From a virus (taxonomy: Duplodnaviria > Heunggongvirae > Uroviricota > Caudoviricetes): DNA of 26,168 nt. The notes under the pieces are model-generated. The model was not told where the DNA came from and made no database searches. It saw only the letters and a program-made list of their open reading frames with translations. Below, piece by piece: positions 18,107 to 26,168 of this stretch (position 1 is the first letter of the stretch; every line of letters begins with the position of its first letter). Made by a program: the position numbers and the translations under genes. The stretch is taken from the IMG/VR virus record IMGVR_UViG_2671180921_000027, positions 1 to 26,168 of that record. One strand, written 5' to 3'.

Positions 18107-18703
18107 TCACCCCCGCGTGGCGGACATGATGCCTAGAGGGGTATCGATGATTTCCAGACAGGCGTCGGTCAGCTTTTCCATGCGGTTAAACCAGCCGTTC
18201 AGGTATTTACCCTGGGCGGGTTTTGACTTGATGATGTCGGCATAAAAGCGGGAACGACGGACAATGCAGCGGGCCAGCAACCAGTCCGGGGTGGACAGAC
18301 TCACGGCCTTACGGGTACGTGGGCCGATGATGCCGTCAGCATCCACATCAGCGGCTTCCTGCAAAATTTTGATGGCTTTTTTAACGCCATGCTGAACCGC
18401 TGCATCGAACACAAACATCGCCACGCCATCAGGCCACTGGTCACATCCGGCAGGCAGCCAGTAATCGCGCCAGTAAATCTGCGCAACCTGTTCGCGGGTT
18501 AAATCCTTAATGCGGGTATCCGGTTTGCCGTCGCCGTTGACATCGGTTTTGCCGTCAATCACACCGTCGCGGCGGTCAGAAATGCCGTATTTGGTTTCGC
18601 CGCCACGGTCAGAGGGGTCATTGACATAGACGCCTTCGATATCGGGACGCAGAATGAAATTCAGCGCATGTTCAAAGGCCGGGGAGAGTTTTTGATTTTC
18701 CAT
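18107..18703 (-). CDS. Endolysin, GH108-type muramidase with C-terminal peptidoglycan-binding region
   Basis: GGETKYGIS motif near N-terminus; AGGTG RBS 5 nt upstream of ATG at 18703. Confidence 0.7.
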   Translation of the reverse strand: MENQKLSPAFEHALNFILRPDIEGVYVNDPSDRGGETKYGISDRRDGVIDGKTDVNGDGKPDTRIKDLTREQVAQIYWRDYWLPAGCDQWPDGVAMFVFDAAVQHGVKKAIKILQEAADVDADGIIGPRTRKAVSLSTPDWLLARCIVRRSRFYADIIKSKPAQGKYLNGWFNRMEKLTDACLEIIDTPLGIMSATRG

Positions 18704-18756
18704 AAAAGCACCTGTGAAGCAGATTTAAACGTGGTCTGCTTCATGGTGCCGGAGGC

Positions 18757-18784
18757 ATAAAAAAAGCCGGATTTACCGGCTTCA
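18757..18784 (-). terminator. Intrinsic terminator hairpin 4 nt after the Mor/C-family stop codon, copy 1
   Basis: Same 26-nt sequence as 11023..11048; 7-bp stem, 5-nt loop, U7 tract on minus transcript. Confidence 0.65.
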
Positions 18785-18788
18785 TTGA

Positions 18789-19238
18789 TTAAGGGCGGCG
18801 TGGCGGACGACGAACGGGGTGAGGCAGGTTCGGGGAGTGGTAGAACAAATCCGGCTGGTATTTATTACGCTCCAGACGTCGCATCCGTTTGATGGCCTTG
18901 TAGACGGTTTTATACGTCACTCCGTAACGCTGAACCAGTTCAGGAATATTATGGCCGTTAAAATCACGCCAGATACGCATATCCCGGACAAGATTCTCCA
19001 GAATATTCCCCCTCGGAACATAAACCTGCATCCCGCCGATATGGCGACAAATCGCCACAACCAGCTCAAGGGAATGGGCAGGGTCTGCGCCAATCCGGGC
19101 CAGCTCTTTACGCAGCAGTGCGTTCAGTTCAGAAAGTAACGCCGGATAAGCGGTGTTTTCCTGGTAATCGTTAAGGTATTCCAGAACGCTGTCGTCCCGA
19201 AGGTCTTCGAATAAATCCTGCTCTTTCATCTGTTTCAT
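18789..19238 (-). CDS. mor: Mor/C-family transcriptional activator
   Basis: 149-aa ORF; ATGA coupling to GemA-like gene; sequence resembles remembered Mor (FPALLxELNxLLRxEL...DPAHSLE..VAIC). Confidence 0.7.
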   Translation of the reverse strand: MKQMKEQDLFEDLRDDSVLEYLNDYQENTAYPALLSELNALLRKELARIGADPAHSLELVVAICRHIGGMQVYVPRGNILENLVRDMRIWRDFNGHNIPELVQRYGVTYKTVYKAIKRMRRLERNKYQPDLFYHSPNLPHPVRRPPRRP

Positions 19239-19786
19239 ACAGCAATTCTCCCGCTGTTTCGTGCGCGGGCATATGCACTGGTCAGTGCATCATATCCGCG
19301 CAGTTCCCGCCCGGATGGGCTTACAGGTAAAGGCACACCATGTCGGGCAAAGGCTTCCCGGATGCAGCGCATATGCCACTGTTTGAGCGTTTCGAGCACA
19401 ACCTGCAACGATTCCCCGTGACACCAGGCCAGTGTGGAAACACCCTGACCGCCATTACGTCTGGCCGTCAGGCGCTCAACGTATTTGTCCAGCGCGGCGT
19501 CGCTGGTATCGGAGACGAAACCATCAAGAAACATCTGTTGCCAGATTTTATAAATCTTCTCGCGCGGTGTGACATGCCCCTTAAAGCGACGGCGGGGATG
19601 TTTTTTCTGCTTCTTAAAACCGCGCTCTTTCATGGCATCGAGCACACGTTCCAGTTGTGCAACGGACAGCTCGCGGCAACTGGTCTTGCCCGTGCACTGC
19701 ACCAGAAAGGCGCGGTAAGTGTCATCGTCGAGTTGTAGATCACGACGGGCGACATGAATTAACTTAATAAGCGATGTGCGACTCAT
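19235..19786 (-). CDS. gemA: GemA-like protein (Mu gp16 family)
   Basis: Start refined to ATG 19786 with GAGAGGTGA RBS; LIKLIHVARRDLQLDDDTYRAFLVQCTGKTSC matches remembered GemA motif. Confidence 0.65.
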   Translation of the reverse strand: MSRTSLIKLIHVARRDLQLDDDTYRAFLVQCTGKTSCRELSVAQLERVLDAMKERGFKKQKKHPRRRFKGHVTPREKIYKIWQQMFLDGFVSDTSDAALDKYVERLTARRNGGQGVSTLAWCHGESLQVVLETLKQWHMRCIREAFARHGVPLPVSPSGRELRGYDALTSAYARARNSGRIAV

Positions 19787-19816
19787 TTTGTCACCTCTCA
19801 TATTAAGGAATGAGAT

Positions 19817-20221
19817 ATGAAAATTGATTACGATGAACTGGCAAGAATCCTTGATACTTTTCTGAATGCAGACAGCGCATTTATTACCCTTAAGGATGTT
19901 GGAATCGACACAACCGACGATGAAGATAAACTGATATTTCATTTATTACTGCTCGTCGAAAATGGTCTTATCGGTAACAGAGAACTGCAAACTGGCACCC
20001 CGGAGTGCATCGGTCTGAAGTTCACCACAACAGGTATTGGCTGGCGAAACATACCAATAAGGCTGACTCAGGACGGACATGATTTTGCCAATGCATTGCA
20101 TCAAAAACCTATTCTTGAACGAATCAAAAAAGAATTTGCCGAAGCCCCGTTTGATGTTGTCAAAGACCTCGGCAAGGGGTTTTTAACTCAGTTATTTAAA
20201 AAGAAACTCGGTATTGAATAA
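19817..20221 (+). CDS. Hypothetical protein, possibly DUF2513-like; AT-rich opposite-strand gene
   Basis: 134-aa ORF, the only convincing plus-strand gene; ATG 19817 after AAGGAA; 22 G+C in first 60 nt by hand count; RLTQDGHDFANAL resembles a remembered DUF2513 motif (unverified). Confidence 0.6.
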   Translation: MKIDYDELARILDTFLNADSAFITLKDVGIDTTDDEDKLIFHLLLLVENGLIGNRELQTGTPECIGLKFTTTGIGWRNIPIRLTQDGHDFANALHQKPILERIKKEFAEAPFDVVKDLGKGFLTQLFKKKLGIE

Positions 20222-20494
20222 CTCCTTACTCATTCGCTGTAGCACATCAAGGGCGGCAACTGCTGCCACTTTATCCTGACCGGCAATGATTTTTCGTAAT
20301 TCCTCAATAATCCAGGCATGGCTTAATGATTCAGCAATCATCGTGCGCTTTTCTGAAATTAAATTTTCTCTGGCCTGCTCATAGTGCTGGTATACGACAT
20401 TATCCAGAAAATCATTTACATTTTGTTCTGGCATGCCACTGGAAATTAAGGTTGCAGCCATTAAATCAGCATCAGTAATCATCTGTATTTTCAT
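20192..20494 (-). CDS. Hypothetical protein, AT-rich, convergent with and overlapping 19817..20221 by 30 nt
   Basis: 100-aa ORF; GAGGAGGT RBS 9 nt upstream of ATG at 20494; 22 G+C in first 60 nt by hand count. Confidence 0.55.
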   Translation of the reverse strand: MKIQMITDADLMAATLISSGMPEQNVNDFLDNVVYQHYEQARENLISEKRTMIAESLSHAWIIEELRKIIAGQDKVAAVAALDVLQRMSKELFNTEFLFK

Positions 20495-20554
20495 TTCTTA
20501 ATACCTCCTCGCAATAAAAAACTTCATTCGGATGGCGTTTCTGCATGTGCTCCA

Positions 20555-20668
20555 TCACCTGCATACATGCCTGCTCTGTGGGCCAGATTTTTCTGTCACC
20601 GGAATGGCATCACAGGCATCATTCCCACAGGTGCCAACCAGCAGGACAAAGCCAATTGACTTAATCAC
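20555..20668 (-). CDS. Candidate small ORF (37 aa) with hydrophobic N-terminus and near-lipobox LVGTC
   Basis: Hand translation MIKSIGFVLLVGTCGNDACDAIPVTEKSGPQSRHVCR from GTG 20668 with GGAG 7 nt upstream; below ORF-track size cut-off. Confidence 0.2.
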   Translation of the reverse strand: MIKSIGFVLLVGTCGNDACDAIPVTEKSGPQSRHVCR

Positions 20669-20945
20669 CGTTCGTCTCCATTTGTTCCAGGCGCTGCGCT
20701 TCGCGCATACACAGCTGCGCAATCATCATCTGGCGGGTAATGCCTGCACGAATAAACGAAGCTGCACGACGGAGATTTTTTGCATTCGCCTGTTGAATCA
20801 ATGCAGGCACTGATGCCAGACATTCGGCGCTGTCTTTAATCAGCGTTGCTGCTGTTATTTCTGTTTTTTGTCGTTCACTCTTTGTGGTCATAAACATCAC
20901 CATTTCAGATTCAGGCGCGAGCAATCCCCTGACGCATCGCGCCAT
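20661..20945 (-). CDS. Hypothetical early protein; start uncertain (possibly ATG at 20891)
   Basis: 94-aa ORF without RBS at first ATG; internal ATG with GGTGA upstream. Confidence 0.45.
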   Translation of the reverse strand: MARCVRGLLAPESEMVMFMTTKSERQKTEITAATLIKDSAECLASVPALIQQANAKNLRRAASFIRAGITRQMMIAQLCMREAQRLEQMETNGD

Positions 20946-20985
20946 AATTAAAAGAAAGTGAATTAATTAAATATTCGTAGTGGTA

Positions 20986-21510
20986 TTAAATACCGGCTTC
21001 CTGTTCAAACGGAATAATGGAAAAATCTTCAATTCCAGACTTAACTGTAATTCCGGCAACACCTGCTACCGCTTTCGGTTCCAGTAAAATTGCTTCCTTG
21101 TTGATTTCCTGTTTCGTGCGAATAAAGCGTTGCAGACCAAGACGCTCCAGCGTTTCCATCACCGCATCCACACCGCGAATACTTACCGATGGTGGGCGCT
21201 GACGCCATGACACATCGCCGGTTACCAGGTTCGCCGTCTTCACCTTGCCGCCGTTCGTCAGTTCGTCACGGTTCGCTTCACACCATCCCTGAACGCCTTT
21301 TGAAAGGGTTTCAATACTGGTTTTAAGCGGCGCAATCTGTGAGGCGTATTTCTCAGTAATTTCAGCGATAGCGTCATTCATTTCCGTTTCAAGTCGTGCT
21401 GCTTCGCGTTGCAGGTCCCCAATCCGGCGGATATCACATACCACGGCATCGCGGGATTGCGGAACATAAGCCGCTGCGGCGTTCTTGATTCGTTTTGCTG
21501 GTTTAGCCAT
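20986..21510 (-). CDS. gam: Gam-like host-nuclease inhibitor (Mu Gam family)
   Basis: 174 aa, MAKPAKRIK...RIGDLQREA...; length and sequence closely match remembered Mu Gam. Confidence 0.8.
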   Translation of the reverse strand: MAKPAKRIKNAAAAYVPQSRDAVVCDIRRIGDLQREAARLETEMNDAIAEITEKYASQIAPLKTSIETLSKGVQGWCEANRDELTNGGKVKTANLVTGDVSWRQRPPSVSIRGVDAVMETLERLGLQRFIRTKQEINKEAILLEPKAVAGVAGITVKSGIEDFSIIPFEQEAGI

Positions 21511-21530
21511 ATAAATAAAGCTCCTGTTAA

Positions 21531-21830
21531 TTAATATTCGCTGTATACAATGCTGGATACAGCACGATTGCTTAATTCCATCTTTTGGGCAATGACATGA
21601 ATAGCCAGCCCTTCTTTATAAAGTTCACGACACAAATATTTGTCGTGCTCACTGACCCGGTATGCACACAACGATATTCCGTGTCTTCTGGCATGTGCCT
21701 GTAGGGCGGTTGGGGCAACGTTCAGTTTCTTCGCCATTTCTTCGACGGTCATTTTCCCGACGCTGGCTTCGATAAATTCCCGGTCTTCGCGTGACCAGCG
21801 TTTACGCTTACACATCATTCCGGTCACCAC
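21531..21830 (-). CDS. Small DNA-binding protein with two helix-turn-helix-like segments; start uncertain
   Basis: WSREDREFIE...MTVEEMAKKLNVAPTALQAHARRHGI plus a second similar segment. Confidence 0.45.
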   Translation of the reverse strand: MVTGMMCKRKRWSREDREFIEASVGKMTVEEMAKKLNVAPTALQAHARRHGISLCAYRVSEHDKYLCRELYKEGLAIHVIAQKMELSNRAVSSIVYSEY

Positions 21831-22250
21831 TCAGTACAACAGGGGGTCGCGCAGTGATGCCGGAATATGCCGCAGCGATAACTGAACCGCTTTCAGGGCA
21901 AGGGAAGAATACGTCCCCTGCGTCCAGCCTTTAGCCATTCGCCGGTAATCGCGCCAGATGTTCTGCCACTGCTCCCGTGCGTCCGGGTCTGACGCGCTGA
22001 TGTATTCACGGTCCATGACGTATTCCCATAAATCCACATTGAAGGCATTGCCAAACGTAATGGCGCGGAATACCGCCTCCCCGCAATAACGCGCACAAAT
22101 GCTGTAATGGTCAAATGCAATCAGGTAAGTCTTTTCGCCATACCCCTCAACTTCGCGCGCGCAAATAAATTCGCGCAAGTCTCCACCATTGCTATTACGC
22201 TCTTTAATCCGAATTAATGCCTGGATTTCGTTTCTGATTCTGGCGTTCAT
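21831..22250 (-). CDS. Hypothetical early protein (139 aa)
   Basis: AAGGAA RBS 8 nt upstream of ATG 22250; no family recognised. Confidence 0.5.
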   Translation of the reverse strand: MNARIRNEIQALIRIKERNSNGGDLREFICAREVEGYGEKTYLIAFDHYSICARYCGEAVFRAITFGNAFNVDLWEYVMDREYISASDPDAREQWQNIWRDYRRMAKGWTQGTYSSLALKAVQLSLRHIPASLRDPLLY

Positions 22251-22270
22251 TGTCAGCGTTCCTTTGTGAA

Positions 22271-22540
22271 TTAATGTTTGGCTGCATCCGGGTTATACCG
22301 GAATAACTCGCCTTCGACTTCCAGCCCAAGTTCTCTGGCTGACTTCAACAACTCCTGGGTTGCTTTTTCAATAATTTCAGGAGCCATGCTCTTGATAATG
22401 CCTGCCATCACGTCATGCGGTCCGATTTGCTCCTTAGGAGACTGTTCTTCCAGTTGCACACTCATTCCTACAAAGAAACCTCCTTTTTTCTGAAACTCAA
22501 CATCTTCCATGCGGTTAAATTCAAAGATTACTTTTGCCAT
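22271..22540 (-). CDS. Hypothetical early protein (89 aa from refined start)
   Basis: ATG 22540 with GAGGAA RBS; ORF-track N-extension rejected. Confidence 0.45.
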   Translation of the reverse strand: MAKVIFEFNRMEDVEFQKKGGFFVGMSVQLEEQSPKEQIGPHDVMAGIIKSMAPEIIEKATQELLKSARELGLEVEGELFRYNPDAAKH

Positions 22541-22572
22541 TTTGTTATTCCTCACAAATAAATAAGCCGTTA

Positions 22573-22800
22573 TTAACGCCAGATAATCTGGCAACCATTA
22601 AGACGGGCCGTCCATACTGAACGGGCAACCCCTGATTTATGCTCCATAATCCTGACAGCGTTTCTGACCAGCTCCGGCGGTGGGCAGGTGATTTCAAGCA
22701 CCGGGCGGGCCACGCCCAGCCATGATTCGTTGACGTGACTGCCGCGCTCCTGTAACCAGGTCTTTACTTCCGTCGCCATTTTGATATTACGAGACATCAT
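22573..22800 (-). CDS. Small early protein in the Kil position, immediately after the MuB-type gene
   Basis: 75-aa ORF; AAGGAA RBS; positional analogy only. Confidence 0.4.
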
Positions 22801-22812
22801 GGTTTGTGTTCC

Positions 22813-23766
22813 TTACTGCCAGTTCAGTAACTTAGGGTTGCTGTAAGCCTCCTTAAAAGCCGCTTTAATGTGACTTTTATTCAGGGATGAACCAGCACCT
22901 TTCGCCGCCAGCCACGCATGATTCAGTGTGTGAGTTAATACACGCAATCCCCCGGGCTTTTCGGCTACCCTCATCAACAGGTCCAGCTCATCTTCCTGTG
23001 TTACTCCCCATGCTTTGGCTACAGCCATCACGTCGGTTTTTTTCACTTTGCGCAGTTGTTTCGTCATGGCAAAACGGCTGAACAGACGGGCCAGCTCATC
23101 AGTCCCACGACGGGTGGCATCCGCCATCTGTTTCGGGTTGCCAATTAAAACCATCCCCACGCCAGTGGCATCCTGAATGGCGCGTAATTGCTCCAGACCA
23201 TCCACACTTAAGTGATCAGCTTCATCAATAATCAGCAGGGGGTTAACACGGCCACTAATTTCTTTACCACCGCCCAGTTTTCTGCGAATGGCGCGGGTTA
23301 TATTCCCCTTATTTCTTCCCGGATTATTAATTTCCAGCGCATATGCTATTTCAAGGAGACATTCCGTAACGCTCGAATGTGCCGGAGCAAGCGTCACCAT
23401 CCAGGCATTAGCTGTTTTGCGGCAATATTCCCGTGCAGCAAAAGTTTTGCCGACACCCGGTACGCCAACAACAACACTAATAATCCCGAGTGAGCGCACT
23501 GTTTTAAACAGCTCATGCAAATCACAAAATGTCTGGGTCTTCACAACGCCGGGGGCACCTGACAAATTCTGCCCTTTTTGCCAGACCCGATACCATTCCT
23601 GTAATTTGTCATGCATGCCTTCAACATTGCCTCTGTACTTTCCTTTACGAAGATCAGAAAGTGTTGCCGGAGACATTCCGGCCTCATCAGCAATATCTTC
23701 CTGGGACTTGTCGCCCTCGTTAATCAAAGCGTTAATAGTGTTGAAAACATCATCAATATCAGTCAT
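22813..23766 (-). CDS. B: MuB-type transposition target-capture ATPase
   Basis: 317 aa; Walker A GVPGVGKT; N-terminal HTH-like segment; GGAGGAG RBS 5 nt upstream of ATG 23766. Confidence 0.85.
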   Translation of the reverse strand: MTDIDDVFNTINALINEGDKSQEDIADEAGMSPATLSDLRKGKYRGNVEGMHDKLQEWYRVWQKGQNLSGAPGVVKTQTFCDLHELFKTVRSLGIISVVVGVPGVGKTFAAREYCRKTANAWMVTLAPAHSSVTECLLEIAYALEINNPGRNKGNITRAIRRKLGGGKEISGRVNPLLIIDEADHLSVDGLEQLRAIQDATGVGMVLIGNPKQMADATRRGTDELARLFSRFAMTKQLRKVKKTDVMAVAKAWGVTQEDELDLLMRVAEKPGGLRVLTHTLNHAWLAAKGAGSSLNKSHIKAAFKEAYSNPKLLNWQ

Positions 23767-23810
23767 AGTATCTCCTCCATCATTACAGATTTACTTTATT
23801 TTCCTTGTTT

Positions 23811-23839
23811 AACAGTCCGTTACCGCGGACTGTTTTTTT
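23811..23839 (+). terminator. Hairpin AACAGTCCG-TTACCG-CGGACTGTT followed by T-run, between transposase and MuB-type genes
   Basis: Perfect 9-bp stem read directly; T-tract on plus strand, A-tract on the coding (minus) strand. Confidence 0.4.
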
Positions 23840-23841
23840 AT

Positions 23842-25929
23842 TCAGGCCAGCGGATCATCTTCTTCCTGCATGGCAAAAAGCTTTTGCATCCCCAGTCTGA
23901 AATCGCGTTCAAATTCTTCGTCATGCTCTTCTTCATATTCCGGTTGCTGAACTGCCACCACATTCCCAACCGGGCGATAAACATTATCCAGCCAGGGTTC
24001 AGCTTGTTTGTGCTCCAGAATCTGAATACCTTCATCTTCAGCATCACGAATTTTTTCCTCAGCGCGTTTGCGCATTCCTTTAATACGCTGTTGCTGTTTG
24101 TGATATTCCGCACTGACAGGGAAGGCTGCGCGTTTATTGCCGTTCCATATCGCCTCACAGATAAAGCTGCCGTCCTTGCGACGTACCGTAATTCGCTCGG
24201 CGTCATGAATGTCATAACTGATAAGCACTTTGCGACCGTGTTCGTCACGCAACTCCGGCGCGTAGTAAATATTGTTCAGCCACTGGATTTCGCAGCGTCT
24301 TACTGGACGCTCCACCATCGGGCGGAACATGTCGCGCAGCTCAAGATCACTCAGCCACTCAATTTCGGTGTCTTCTTCTGCCAGGCGTTTTTTTCTGAAC
24401 TCTGCCGGGCTGTAATGCCGCCCGTTCGGTTTCATCGGCAGCTCAGAATGAGGGCGGTTGTTGTACCATTCCACGCCTTCACGAATAGCCTCAATAAGCT
24501 CCGCCCACGATGGCAGCTCGCGCATTGCCGCTTTCTGGCGGTCGTTCAGAGGCTTGTCCTGTTGCATGGCGTTAAACGCTGAACGCAGATCACGGTTAAG
24601 TACACGCAACGATTCCCGGTCAGCACCCTTGCCAAAATAGGTGCGATACCTCCTGGCTATACGCATCGGCAGTGTCCGGTTCAGGCGTTCAATAATGCCG
24701 CGCCCCTGTGGATTACCGGCAATACCTGTTGGGTGTTTAATCCCCAGGCGGGGCAGAATACCCACGACCTCTTTGTCCAGCATGTCAGCCGTTTCACCAG
24801 AACCGTTATCCGAGTAATACAGAAACGGTTTTCCGTGGTTGCGAATGCCGTGCTGTATCGCACCGGCAACGGCGAACACGTTCTCGGCAAGGTCAAGACT
24901 CCAGCCAACAACAAACCGGGTTCCACCGTCGATCACAAATGTGACTTCCGGTGAGAATGGACGCCCGTGGATCGGATGTGCACATTTCAGCTTCATACCG
25001 TGACCGTCACCAATCCAGACATAATTCACCGGCATAGCTGTCCAGGCGCGGCGGGTGAATCCTTCAAGCTGACGGTATTCACTGCCGGTAACGCGCCCTT
25101 TTTGTTTCACCACTTCCGGCAGTTTTTTCATGGCATACCGGACAACATCATAGGAAGGCATCACCTCCAGCATGTACGGTTCGTCCGCATGACGACGCTG
25201 CCATTCCGCGACAAAATCCTCGTAGGCTTCAGACATAGGTCTGCCGTTCACCTGGCGATACTGCGCCAGAAACTCAGGTAGCCAGCTAATTTGTTCCGGT
25301 TTTATTTCGTCGCGTTTTCCTGGTGCCAGTAACAGCAGCCGTTCTGCGGCATTCTGTGACTGGTTGTATTTCAGCACCCACTGATAAAGCGGGTCACGAC
25401 TGATGGTGCGATTAGCGCCACGTTTTGCATTGGCGTTAACTGCGGCCTGTTGCAGGCGTTCCGGTAGTTCACCTTTACGGGCTTTTTCGACAAGATAGTT
25501 AATGGCTTTCAGCCGCCCGAGATTACCGTCGCTTTCCAGCTTCAGCACTTCCACCACCAGCGCAGCCCTTGCTTCAGATACCCGACGCTGATTTTCGGTC
25601 AGCGCATTCAGGCGTTCTTCCATCAGTTGTGGCGAACCGCGATATGCTTCGATTGCCTGGACAGCATCAGGATTACGCGCCTTCCTGGTAACGACCTGAA
25701 CTTCGGAAACGTTGTTCTCCGTAGCTACCAGTTGTTCCACATAACGTTCACGCAGCGCCTTTTGAGTCGCTTCCGGCAGACAATCAATGTGGTACTCAAT
25801 GGCTTTTGTACCTGCTCGTTTGCGTCGAAAATGCTCTGATGAGGCCAATTTTTTTATAGTGTACCTCACACCTTGCGCACTTCCCGGCATACCAGGCAGC
25901 CCCACGAGTTCGTTGACAGACACAAACAT
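23842..25929 (-). CDS. A: MuA-type DDE transposase
   Basis: 695 aa; candidate catalytic residues in VWIGDGH, YYSDNGSGE and GIIERLNRT; directly follows ner. Confidence 0.9.
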   Translation of the reverse strand: MFVSVNELVGLPGMPGSAQGVRYTIKKLASSEHFRRKRAGTKAIEYHIDCLPEATQKALRERYVEQLVATENNVSEVQVVTRKARNPDAVQAIEAYRGSPQLMEERLNALTENQRRVSEARAALVVEVLKLESDGNLGRLKAINYLVEKARKGELPERLQQAAVNANAKRGANRTISRDPLYQWVLKYNQSQNAAERLLLLAPGKRDEIKPEQISWLPEFLAQYRQVNGRPMSEAYEDFVAEWQRRHADEPYMLEVMPSYDVVRYAMKKLPEVVKQKGRVTGSEYRQLEGFTRRAWTAMPVNYVWIGDGHGMKLKCAHPIHGRPFSPEVTFVIDGGTRFVVGWSLDLAENVFAVAGAIQHGIRNHGKPFLYYSDNGSGETADMLDKEVVGILPRLGIKHPTGIAGNPQGRGIIERLNRTLPMRIARRYRTYFGKGADRESLRVLNRDLRSAFNAMQQDKPLNDRQKAAMRELPSWAELIEAIREGVEWYNNRPHSELPMKPNGRHYSPAEFRKKRLAEEDTEIEWLSDLELRDMFRPMVERPVRRCEIQWLNNIYYAPELRDEHGRKVLISYDIHDAERITVRRKDGSFICEAIWNGNKRAAFPVSAEYHKQQQRIKGMRKRAEEKIRDAEDEGIQILEHKQAEPWLDNVYRPVGNVVAVQQPEYEEEHDEEFERDFRLGMQKLFAMQEEDDPLA

Positions 25930-25931
25930 TT

Positions 25932-26168
25932 TTACGCCACCTTACGAACGTAGCGGCTGGGCCAGATCTCCTCCGGAGCCACACCGATAGCATCAGCAAT
26001 AATGCGTTCATACTTAGGGCATTTGCGGTACAAGGCATTCTTTAAAGAATCCTTGTTTAAACCTGCTTCAACTGATAGCGAACGCAAAGTAAAGCCTTTC
26101 ACATGCACTGCAGCGACAACATGTGCCGGGTGCCAGTCCTGTTTTACAACTTCATTTATAGACATCAT
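25932..26168 (-). CDS. ner: Ner-like DNA-binding regulator
   Basis: 78 aa ending ...EEIWPSRY...; ATG at the window edge, so the true start may be either of the first two ATGs. Confidence 0.75.
   Translation of the reverse strand: MMSINEVVKQDWHPAHVVAAVHVKGFTLRSLSVEAGLNKDSLKNALYRKCPKYERIIADAIGVAPEEIWPSRYVRKVA

What the first reader, a model, noticed from the sequence alone, without database searches (positions are those of the whole stretch)
20495..22800. Early region of small ORFs without recognisable families
Between the MuB-type gene and the GemA-like gene, apart from Gam, there are at least six small genes (22573..22800, 22271..22540, 21831..22250, 21531..21830, 20661..20945 and the AT-rich pair) that I cannot assign to any family. 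This is the semi-essential early region of Mu-like phages, where host-takeover and anti-defense functions are expected. The 21531..21830 product has two HTH-like segments and could be a regulator.
Basis: partly seen in the sequence, partly recalled or inferred. Interest (0 to 1): 0.5.

Follow-up and report, generated by a model that had tools for sequence, protein, structure and literature searches.

The report
Mu-type phage early accessory genes
The small genes are real, but they are ordinary counterparts of the long-catalogued and mostly uncharacterised early accessory genes of phages Mu and D108 (Kil, gp7, gp8, gp9), followed by a shuffled set of small cassette genes.

Summary
They have Shine-Dalgarno sites and evolve under purifying selection. 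They can be assigned to families:
- 22573-22800 is Mu Kil (85% identity).
- 22271-22540 is the D108-type allele of gene 7 (75%).
- 21831-22250 is Mu gp8 (83%).
- 21531-21830 is Mu gp9/E8 (87%).
- 20661-20945 is a 76-aa cassette gene of E. coli Mu-like prophages. Its true start is probably 20891.

The window lacks Mu gp6, gp11, gp12 and gp13. A further 65-aa Cys-rich cassette gene (20472-20668) is frameshifted in an A-run.

The two-HTH idea for gp9 is supported: an AlphaFold model (pLDDT 81) shows two three-helix HTH domains resembling bipartite transposase and Myb-type DNA binders. gp8 gave no usable model and has almost no relatives outside Enterobacterales Mu-like prophages.

Nothing matches a known anti-defence or defence family. 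Across 31 related loci Kil, Gam and gp9 are near-universal, gp8 and gp6 are optional, the gene-7 slot holds three allele types, and the gam-gemA interval has 18 architectures.

Verdict: a typical mosaic Mu semi-essential early region, already known as sequence families. Only Kil and Gam have a known function.

The parts
22573..22800 (-). kil orthologue (75 aa), 12 nt downstream of the B gene
   Evidence: 85% identical to Mu Kil/gp5 over 74 aa, E 5e-47. PHROG 2743 full length, E 2e-39. 100% identical to E. coli prophage proteins in L003 and L004. PF26843 Kil_protein on near-identical relatives. dN/dS 0.02-0.13. SD AAGGAA.
22271..22540 (-). D108-type gene 7 allele (89 aa), function unknown
   Evidence: 75% identical to D108 gp7 over 89 aa. 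PHROG 2230 full length. Shares only the first ~13 residues (MAKVI..) with Mu gp7, which is PHROG 10252. 40 homologue clusters, all E. coli or Salmonella where a source names the organism. SD GAGGAA.
21831..22250 (-). gp8 (E7) orthologue (139 aa), function unknown
   Evidence: 83% identical to Mu gp8, full length. PHROG 3690. Only 11 representatives at E<=1e-3 among 1.84 billion proteins. AlphaFold pLDDT 49, no usable fold. No PDB sequence match. Present in 24 of 31 related loci. dN/dS 0.13-0.33.
21531..21830 (-). gp9 (E8) orthologue: small protein of two tandem three-helix HTH domains (99 aa from GTG 21830, or 95 aa from ATG 21818)
20986..21510 (-). gam (host-nuclease inhibitor), listed for context
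   Evidence: Pfam Phage_Mu_Gam, E 2e-43. 92.5% identical to Mu Gam.
20892..20985 (-). conserved non-coding element after gam: an AT-rich tract plus the hairpin GGCGCGA..TCGCGCC (hairpin at 20914-20943). It marks the boundary between the conserved block and the variable cassettes.
   Evidence: Aligned across Mu, PhiR68_1 and E. coli prophages that carry different downstream genes. Mean pairwise identity 95.5%, against 79.7% at gam third codon positions, in 37 unique loci. Predicted RNA fold -24.6 kcal/mol, z -2.67. No T-run follows the hairpin, so it does not look like an intrinsic terminator.
20661..20891 (-). 76-aa cassette gene, function unknown, absent from Mu and D108
   Evidence: PHROG 24376 covers residues 20-94 of the long ORF. 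98.7% identical to the 76-aa CDS of E. coli SA53-3 and 82% to that of SE11. No tblastn match in 50,697 phage records. dN/dS 0.06. SD GGTGAT before ATG 20891. Present in 8 of 31 loci.
20472..20668 (-). frameshifted copy of a 60/65-aa Cys-rich cassette gene with a hydrophobic N-terminus (PHROG 16556). The A-run at 20588-20592 is A5 instead of A6.
   Evidence: DNA alignment with four relatives shows a one-base deletion in the A-run. The intact 65-aa form in L008 and L012 is identical to the downstream piece in the window. Of 25 copies, 21 are intact, one has A7 (L042) and two listed loci carry a nonsense codon. PHROG 16556.
20192..20494 (-).
   Evidence: PHROG 1988 full length, E 2e-41. No similarity to Mu gp14. 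90-99% identical in E. coli prophages. A tblastn hit to this protein is present in 20 of 31 loci; some of these are only 43-54% identical.
19817..20221 (+). opposite-strand 134-aa DUF2513-like gene in the slot that holds gp15 in Mu, the other member of the AT-rich pair
   Evidence: PHROG 585, E 2e-23. Pfam DUF2513 below cutoff, 18.9 bits against 29.6. 63% identical to the PGAP-annotated DUF2513 protein of E. coli SE11. The exact protein is indexed in 140 blocks of the contig collection. GC 0.41-0.46 here against about 0.55-0.60 in the late region.

Best explanation
The region is the kil-to-gam part of the semi-essential early operon of a Mu/D108-type transposable prophage, followed by the start of the variable cassette array that lies between gam and gemA.

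Shown here:
- Reading on the minus strand after A and B, the genes are kil, a D108-type gene 7, gp8, gp9, gam, a conserved ~90-nt non-coding element, a 76-aa cassette gene, a frameshifted 65-aa cassette gene and a 100-aa cassette gene.
- An opposite-strand DUF2513-like gene then precedes gemA and mor.
- Mu gp6, gp11, gp12 and gp13 are absent.
- All genes are tightly packed, each has its own SD site, and some cassette genes overlap by 8 nt at ATGA/GTGA junctions.

Inferred from Mu biology:
- The genes are co-transcribed with A and B from the early promoter Pe once the repressor is lost, and they are dispensable for plaque formation.
- Kil kills the host by blocking cell elongation, giving spherical cells.
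- Gam binds DNA ends and protects them from host exonuclease.
- gp9 binds DNA through two HTH domains joined by a flexible linker, like the bipartite DNA-binding domains of Tc3/IS-type transposases and like Myb R2R3. It acts as an accessory regulator or architectural factor. This is inference. Its near-universal retention suggests it is the most important of the unknown genes.
- gp7, gp8 and the cassette genes are optional, exchangeable accessory proteins whose activity is unknown.

The differences from Mu arose by recombination at short conserved joints: the start of gene 7, the post-gam element, and ~20-nt SD/ATGA junction repeats.
For: - Orthology: blastp to Mu gives Kil 85%, gp8 83%, gp9 87%, Gam 92.5%, GemA 81% and Mor 63%. 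D108 gp7 is 75% identical.
- Gene order is the same as in NC_000929 and NC_013594.
- DNA identity with Mu, D108, SfMu and the Yersinia Mu-like phages is ~85-91% over the matched parts of gam..kil.
- The genes are real: SD sites and dN/dS 0.02-0.33.
- gp9 fold.
- Comparative occupancy in 31 loci: Kil 31, Gam 31, gp9 30, gp8 24 and gp6 12. There are three gene-7 allele types and 18 gam-gemA architectures.
- Kil and gp9 are retained in Klebsiella, Raoultella and Pluralibacter Mu-like prophages, which have DUF3164 instead of Gam.
- Junction repeats flank the 120-aa cassette in L005, and the window carries a hybrid joint.
- Literature: the semi-essential region and its largely unknown functions (PMC3820752; PMC4553209), variability of ORF7, 11, 14 and 15 among Mu, D108 and SfMu (PMC4406740), and the Mu Kil phenotype (PMC3961180).
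Against: - No function was tested. Transcription from Pe, the Kil phenotype and DNA binding by gp9 are carried over from Mu or from fold resemblance.
- The fold matches for gp9 are weak as whole-protein matches (Foldseek E 0.09-0.4 against PDB). Only the individual HTH domains align well.
- gp8 gave no usable structure.
- The B protein is only 40% identical to Mu B, so this prophage is a mosaic and not a simple Mu variant.
- The 31-locus survey is biased towards close relatives. Most loci were retrieved by an exact match to the post-gam hairpin.
Confidence: 0.85

Rival explanations
1. The unknown genes (gene 7, gp8, and the 76-aa, 65-aa and 100-aa cassettes) are host-takeover or anti-defence effectors, and the gam-gemA interval is an anti-defence hotspot.
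For: - The genes are early-expressed by position, small, and narrowly distributed.
- The gene-7 slot holds three allele types and the gam-gemA interval has 18 architectures. Such diversity is typical of conflict genes.
- Gam next door is a nuclease inhibitor.
- The variable block is bounded by a conserved element.
Against: - There is no similarity to any anti-defence or defence family in Pfam, NCBIfam, PADLOC or PHROGs, and no match to solved structures.
- dN/dS is well below 1.
- Mosaicism of early regions is generic to phages and does not by itself indicate anti-defence.
Confidence: 0.25
2. gp9, possibly together with gp8, encodes one of the genetically defined but unassigned Mu early functions. 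Candidates are arm (stimulation of Mu replication) or cim (control of immunity). It would act by binding phage DNA, for example at the ends or the operator region.
For: - The tandem-HTH fold is closest to the DNA-binding domains of transposases and recombinases.
- gp9 is retained in 30 of 31 loci, and also in distant Mu-like prophages that lost gam, gp7 and gp8.
- The literature lists arm and cim in this region (PMC4553209).
Against: - The map positions of arm and cim were not retrieved here, so the link rests on position in the same region only.
- No binding site was identified.
- Many unrelated phages carry similar ~100-aa tandem-HTH proteins of unknown role.
Confidence: 0.2
3. Some of the listed ORFs are chance open frames and not genes.
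For: - The N-terminal 18 codons of the 20661-20945 ORF are non-coding.
- The 20472-20668 gene is disrupted.
Against: All five listed ORFs have SD sites, full-length PHROG matches, orthologues in many genomes and dN/dS well below 1.
Confidence: 0.02

Closest known systems
Bacteriophage Mu semi-essential early region (NC_000929, Mup05-Mup10: kil, gp6, gp7, gp8, gp9, gam)
   Same: Same position after B, same strand and same order. Kil, gp8, gp9 and Gam are 83-93% identical, and DNA identity over the matched parts is ~87%.
   Different: gp6 is absent. Gene 7 is replaced by an allele that shares only its first ~13 residues with Mu gp7. gp11, gp12 and gp13 are absent, and different genes occupy the gp14 and gp15 slots. 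B is only 40% identical.
Phage D108 early region (NC_013594, genes kil-gam)
   Same: The window's 89-aa gene is the D108-type gene 7 (75% identity). A continuous DNA match at 86.7% runs from the post-gam element, through gam, to gene 7.
   Different: D108 keeps gp6, gp11, gp12, gp13 and gp14, which the window lacks.
Mu-like prophages of E. coli (for example STEC388 NZ_CP041425, 06-00048 NZ_CP015229, SA53-3 NZ_CP076279, SE11 NC_011415)
   Same: Nearest relatives. B, kil, gp8, gp9 and gam are 97-100% identical at the DNA level to STEC388. The 76-aa gene is 97% identical (DNA) to SA53-3. The 100-aa, DUF2513-like and gemA genes are 99-100% identical (DNA) to L008 and L012.
   Different: No single relative has the same combination. 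The window is a new permutation of known modules, and it alone has the A5 frameshift in the 65-aa gene.
Bipartite two-HTH DNA-binding domains (Tc3 transposase 1u78, archaeal CRISPR-repeat binder Cbp2 2lvs, Myb R2R3, AraC C-terminal domains)
   Same: gp9 is predicted to consist of two three-helix HTH units joined by a linker of about 11 residues. There are weak sequence hits to HTH_Tnp_1, Cbp1 and 2lvs.
   Different: No significant sequence homology to any of them. gp9 is a stand-alone 95-99-aa protein with no catalytic or sensor domain. DNA binding and its target are untested.

Membership tests
Mu Kil (PHROG 2743 / Pfam PF26843 Kil_protein) | Full-length sequence similarity to Mu gp5 | tested here: met
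   85% identity over 74 of 75 residues, E 5e-47. PHROG 2743 covers 1-75 of 75, E 2e-39. PF26843 is recorded on relatives that are ~95% identical at the DNA level.
Mu Kil (PHROG 2743 / Pfam PF26843 Kil_protein) | Gene lies immediately downstream of B in the early operon | tested here: met
   12-nt gap after the B stop codon, same strand.
Mu Kil (PHROG 2743 / Pfam PF26843 Kil_protein) | Expression kills the host and gives spherical cells | not testable with these tools
   The phenotype is known for Mu Kil only (Waggoner 1989, as cited in PMC3961180).
Mu gp8 / E7 (PHROG 3690) | Full-length similarity and the same position between gene 7 and gp9 | tested here: met
   83% identity over 139 of 139 residues. 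PHROG 3690, E 3e-87. Order as in Mu.
Mu gp9 / E8 (PHROG 323) | Full-length similarity and position immediately upstream of gam | tested here: met
   87% identity over 99 of 99 residues. 20-nt gap to gam.
Helix-turn-helix DNA-binding proteins (tandem tri-helical HTH) | Two three-helix bundles with HTH geometry | tested here: met
Helix-turn-helix DNA-binding proteins (tandem tri-helical HTH) | Sequence match above a curated Pfam HTH threshold | tested here: inconclusive
   The best hit is HTH_Tnp_1 at 23.7 bits against a 24.1-bit cutoff. All other HTH families score below their cutoffs.
Helix-turn-helix DNA-binding proteins (tandem tri-helical HTH) | Binds DNA or regulates transcription | not testable with these tools
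Mu gp7 / E6 (PHROG 10252) | Sequence similarity over the whole protein | tested here: not met
   No blastp hit. hhalign aligns only residues 1-13, probability 30%. The two proteins fall in different PHROGs.
D108 gp7 (PHROG 2230) | Sequence similarity over the whole protein, same slot | tested here: met
   75% identity over 89 of 89 residues, E 4e-52. PHROG 2230 covers 1-89 of 89.
Known anti-defence or defence protein families | Profile match to a described anti-defence or defence family | tested here: not met
   No PADLOC hit apart from a chance-level GajB match (E 0.004, 14 bits) for gp9. No Pfam or NCBIfam anti-restriction or Acr family. All PHROG hits are 'unknown function' except Kil, gp9 and Gam.
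Mu-type semi-essential early region | Block of small same-strand genes between B and gemA/mor that contains kil and gam | tested here: met
Mu-type semi-essential early region | Transcribed from Pe and dispensable for growth | not testable with these tools
   Inferred from Mu (PMC3820752). Optional presence of gp6, gp8 and the cassettes in relatives is consistent with dispensability.

The most novel reading that the evidence does not exclude
The gam-gemA interval, and perhaps the gene-7 slot, may be a cassette-exchange hotspot. It is bounded by an almost invariant ~85-nt non-coding element and by short SD/ATGA junction repeats. At least one of the exchangeable small proteins (D108-type gp7, gp8, or the 76-aa, 65-aa or 100-aa cassettes) would then be an anti-defence or host-takeover effector of a family not yet described. 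Separately, the conserved tandem-HTH protein gp9 may be the unassigned Mu accessory factor that tunes transposition or immunity.
Probability: 0.3. Interest if true: 0.45.

Novelty: already known. Interest (0 to 1): 0.18.

Why it matters
It matters little as a discovery. These gene families have been in the Mu and D108 sequences for decades, and their variability among Mu, D108 and SfMu is published.

The practical gains are these:
- The annotation is now correct: Kil, D108-type gp7, gp8, gp9, corrected starts, and one pseudogene.
- gp9 now has a confident two-HTH model, and comparison shows it is, with Kil and Gam, the conserved core of this region.
- gp7, gp8 and the cassettes are optional, which tells an experimenter which genes to test first.

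If one of the optional genes proved to be an anti-defence factor, Mu's well-developed genetics would make it easy to study.

Tried and rejected
- Pfam, NCBIfam and PADLOC scans of all ORFs gave nothing above the curated cutoffs, except Gam, GemA and MuB.
- PDB sequence searches for gp8 (single sequence and profile), the gp7 profile, gp9, and the 76-aa, 100-aa and DUF2513-like proteins gave no significant match.
- AlphaFold on gp8 with a 14-sequence alignment gave pLDDT 49, so I ran no fold search on it.
- An exhaustive HMMER search for gp8 found only close Mu-type relatives, one 113-aa relative at 34% identity, and a spurious repeat protein.
- A weak blastp similarity of Kil residues 19-47 to the Mu B C-terminus (E 0.002 in a two-sequence comparison) is absent against the window's own B. 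I treat it as chance.
- Rfam found nothing in 18500-24000 apart from a sub-threshold sroD hit.
- The promoter and terminator scan gave no more sites than shuffled sequence, and no promoter for the opposite-strand gene.
- tblastn of the 76-aa protein against 50,697 phage records found no match.
- Literature searches for functions of Mu gp7, gp8 and gp9 (Mup07-09) found nothing specific.
- I considered and rejected the long TTG start at 22594 for gene 7. It has no SD site and overlaps kil.
Full report
**What is in the sequence.** The window carries a Mu-type transposable prophage whose early operon runs on the minus strand. The order is ner (25932-26168), A (23842-25929), B (22813-23766), a string of small ORFs, gam (20986-21510), more small ORFs, gemA (19235-19786), mor (18789-19238) and a GH108 lysozyme.

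They are genes, not chance frames:
- Each has a Shine-Dalgarno-like sequence 5-10 nt upstream.
- The strand is about 93% coding between 20472 and 22800.
- Nei-Gojobori dN/dS against orthologues in twelve related loci is 0.02-0.13 for kil, 0.13-0.33 for gp8, 0.15-0.26 for gp9 and 0.06 for the 76-aa gene. For gene 7 it is 0.14-0.5, based on few substitutions.

**Identity of each gene.** A megablast of 19200-23800 finds Mu, D108, SfMu, PhiR68_1 and the Yersinia Mu-like phages at ~85-91% identity over the matched parts of gam..kil. It also finds 93 E. coli records, with up to 96.6% identity over 80% of the query.

Using the annotated Mu and D108 records:
- 22573-22800 is Kil, 85% identical to Mu gp5 (PHROG 2743; Pfam PF26843 on near-identical relatives).
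- 21831-22250 is gp8/E7, 83% identical.
- 21531-21830 is gp9/E8, 87% identical.
- 22271-22540 has no blastp match to Mu gp7. A profile comparison aligns only the first 13 residues. It is 75% identical over its full length to D108 gp7. The two gene-7 types belong to different PHROGs, 2230 and 10252. That gene 7 differs between Mu/SfMu and D108 is already published (PMC4406740).
- 20661-20945 has no Mu or D108 counterpart. It is 98.7% identical to a 76-aa CDS in E. coli SA53-3 and 82% to one in SE11 (PHROG 24376).

Mu gp6, gp11, gp12 and gp13 are absent from the window. The Mu gp14 and gp15 slots hold a 100-aa gene (20192-20494, PHROG 1988) and an opposite-strand DUF2513-like gene (19817-20221, PHROG 585).

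**Corrections to the gene models.**
- The first 18 codons of the 20661-20945 ORF lie in a non-coding element that follows gam in every relative, whatever gene comes next. Only ATG 20891 has an SD site, and relatives are annotated from that start.
- gp9 may start at ATG 21818 (95 aa), as PGAP annotates it and as in ~50%-identical homologues.
In the window it is frameshifted by a one-base deletion in an A-run: A5 at 20588-20592, against A6 in relatives.
- Of 25 copies of that gene examined, 21 are intact. One has A7, and one lineage has a nonsense codon at position 37. The gene therefore decays repeatedly, and the A-run is a slippage hotspot. A homopolymer sequencing error in the window cannot be excluded.

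**Structure and function.** No curated family in Pfam, NCBIfam or PADLOC reaches its threshold for any of the unknown genes. No solved structure matches by sequence.

gp9:
- Both halves give weak HTH hits. HTH_Tnp_1 scores 23.7 bits against a 24.1-bit cutoff on residues 6-44. GerE and HTH_23 hit residues 69-94.
- An AlphaFold model from 16 homologues has pLDDT 81. It shows two three-helix bundles, at residues 10-45 and 57-93, joined by a linker.
- The best whole-protein Foldseek matches are bipartite two-HTH DNA binders: Tc3 transposase 1u78, the CRISPR-repeat binder Cbp2 2lvs, and AraC-type C-terminal domains. These matches are weak, E 0.09-0.4.
- Many ~100-aa uncharacterised phage proteins share this architecture.

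'Regulator' remains an inference.

gp8:
- It is an orphan. There are 24 clusters in the 5.8-billion-sequence database and 11 representatives among 1.84 billion, essentially all from Enterobacterales Mu-like prophages.
- Its AlphaFold model is unusable at pLDDT 49.

Kil: the literature reports host killing with spherical cells, which suggests a block of cell elongation. Mu Kil is unrelated to lambda Kil or Rac Kil (PMC3961180).

**Comparative picture.** I collected 39 IMG/VR loci through the post-gam hairpin and added the annotated relatives. Of these, 31 loci span B to gemA:
- Kil and Gam are present in 31, gp9 in 30, gp8 in 24 and gp6 in 12.
- The gene-7 slot is always filled: D108-type in 18, Mu-type in 9, and a third divergent type (PhiR68_1) in 4.
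- The gam-gemA interval shows 18 different gene orders.
- The window's combination is unique in this set, but it is built entirely from known modules.
- Its nearest relative changes from gene to gene. STEC388 is closest for B-kil-gp8-gp9-gam, L007 for gene 7, SA53-3 for the 76-aa gene, and L008/L012 for the 100-aa, DUF2513-like and gemA genes.

More distant Mu-like prophages of Klebsiella, Raoultella and Pluralibacter keep Kil (43-54% identity) and gp9 (~50%). They have no detectable gp7, gp8 or Gam, and carry DUF3164 instead. Kil and gp9 are therefore the conserved core of this region. These five loci were retrieved through their similarity to gp9, so gp9 is present in them by construction.

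Recombination joints are visible:
- the shared MAKVI(F/I)E start of gene 7;
- the post-gam element;
- ~20-nt SD/ATGA junction repeats. These flank the 120-aa cassette in SA53-3 and appear as a single hybrid joint in the window, where that cassette is missing.

**The post-gam element.** The ~85 nt after the gam stop consist of an AT-rich tract followed by the hairpin GGCGCGA-N16-TCGCGCC at 20914-20943. Mean pairwise identity is 95.5% among 37 non-redundant loci, while gam third codon positions are 79.7% identical. The RNA fold is more stable than shuffles (z -2.67). No T-run follows the hairpin, and Rfam has no match. Its role is unexplained. Candidates are an mRNA processing or stabilising site, an attenuator, or a recombination boundary.

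**Conclusion.** This is a typical mosaic semi-essential early region of a Mu/D108-type prophage.

Those three genes are, however, functionally uncharacterised in Mu itself. I found no evidence for or against an anti-defence role beyond the generic pattern of variability. Novelty: already known. Interest: low.

Noticed in passing
window 20472-20668 (-), A-run at 20588-20592: A 60/65-aa Cys-rich cassette gene with a hydrophobic N-terminus (VIKSIGFVLLVGTCGNDAC..., PHROG 16556) is frameshifted in the window (A5 instead of A6). Among 25 copies, one has A7 (L042) and one lineage has a nonsense codon at position 37 (L007, L010, L011). The gene is either decaying repeatedly or switching at a slippery A-run. 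A -1 slip of the lysine tRNA on the A5 run would restore the normal protein. A sequencing error is not excluded.
   Followed up: yes
window 20892-20985 (hairpin 20914-20943): A non-coding element directly after gam is more conserved (95.5% mean pairwise identity) than the third codon positions of gam (79.7%) across Mu, D108 and many prophages. It marks the start of the variable cassette block. It consists of an AT-rich tract plus a GC hairpin with no T-run. Its function is unknown.
   Followed up: partly
window 19817-20221 (+): A 134-aa DUF2513-like gene lies on the opposite strand in the slot that holds gp15 in Mu, in the most AT-rich stretch (GC 0.41-0.46). It overlaps the 100-aa gene tail-to-tail by 30 nt, and its start lies about 30 nt from the gemA start. 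No convincing promoter was found. Among 31 related loci the slot holds the DUF2513-like gene in 9 and gp15 in 7. It may be a lysogen-expressed moron.
   Followed up: partly
window 22813-23766 (-) and 23811-23834: The B protein is only 40% identical to Mu B, while the adjacent kil..gam genes are 83-93% identical, so there is a mosaic joint at the B/kil boundary. The 75-nt A-B intergenic region holds a perfect 10-bp hairpin. It scores as an intrinsic terminator only on the plus (antisense) strand.
   Followed up: no
window 20490-20520 (-); L005 1790-1815 and 2130-2155: Cassette genes between gam and gemA are joined by a repeated ~20-nt SD/start-stop junction, GA(A/G)(A/G)(A/G)GGTATTA(A/C)GA(A/G)ATGA. 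The window has a hybrid joint exactly where relatives carry an extra 120-aa gene. This suggests cassette loss or gain by recombination between junction repeats.
   Followed up: partly
L014-L018 (Raoultella, Klebsiella, Pluralibacter genomes): More distant Mu-like prophages keep A, B, Kil, gp9, gemA and mor. They lack detectable gp7, gp8 and Gam. After gp9 they carry a DUF3164 protein and a 165-aa ORF that looks MazG-like by eye only (no Pfam hit).
   Followed up: partly
window 22541-22572: Mu gp6, a 76-aa Cys-rich protein that looks zinc-ribbon-like by eye, is absent. Only 32 nt separate kil from gene 7. gp6 is present in 12 of 31 related loci.
   Followed up: yes
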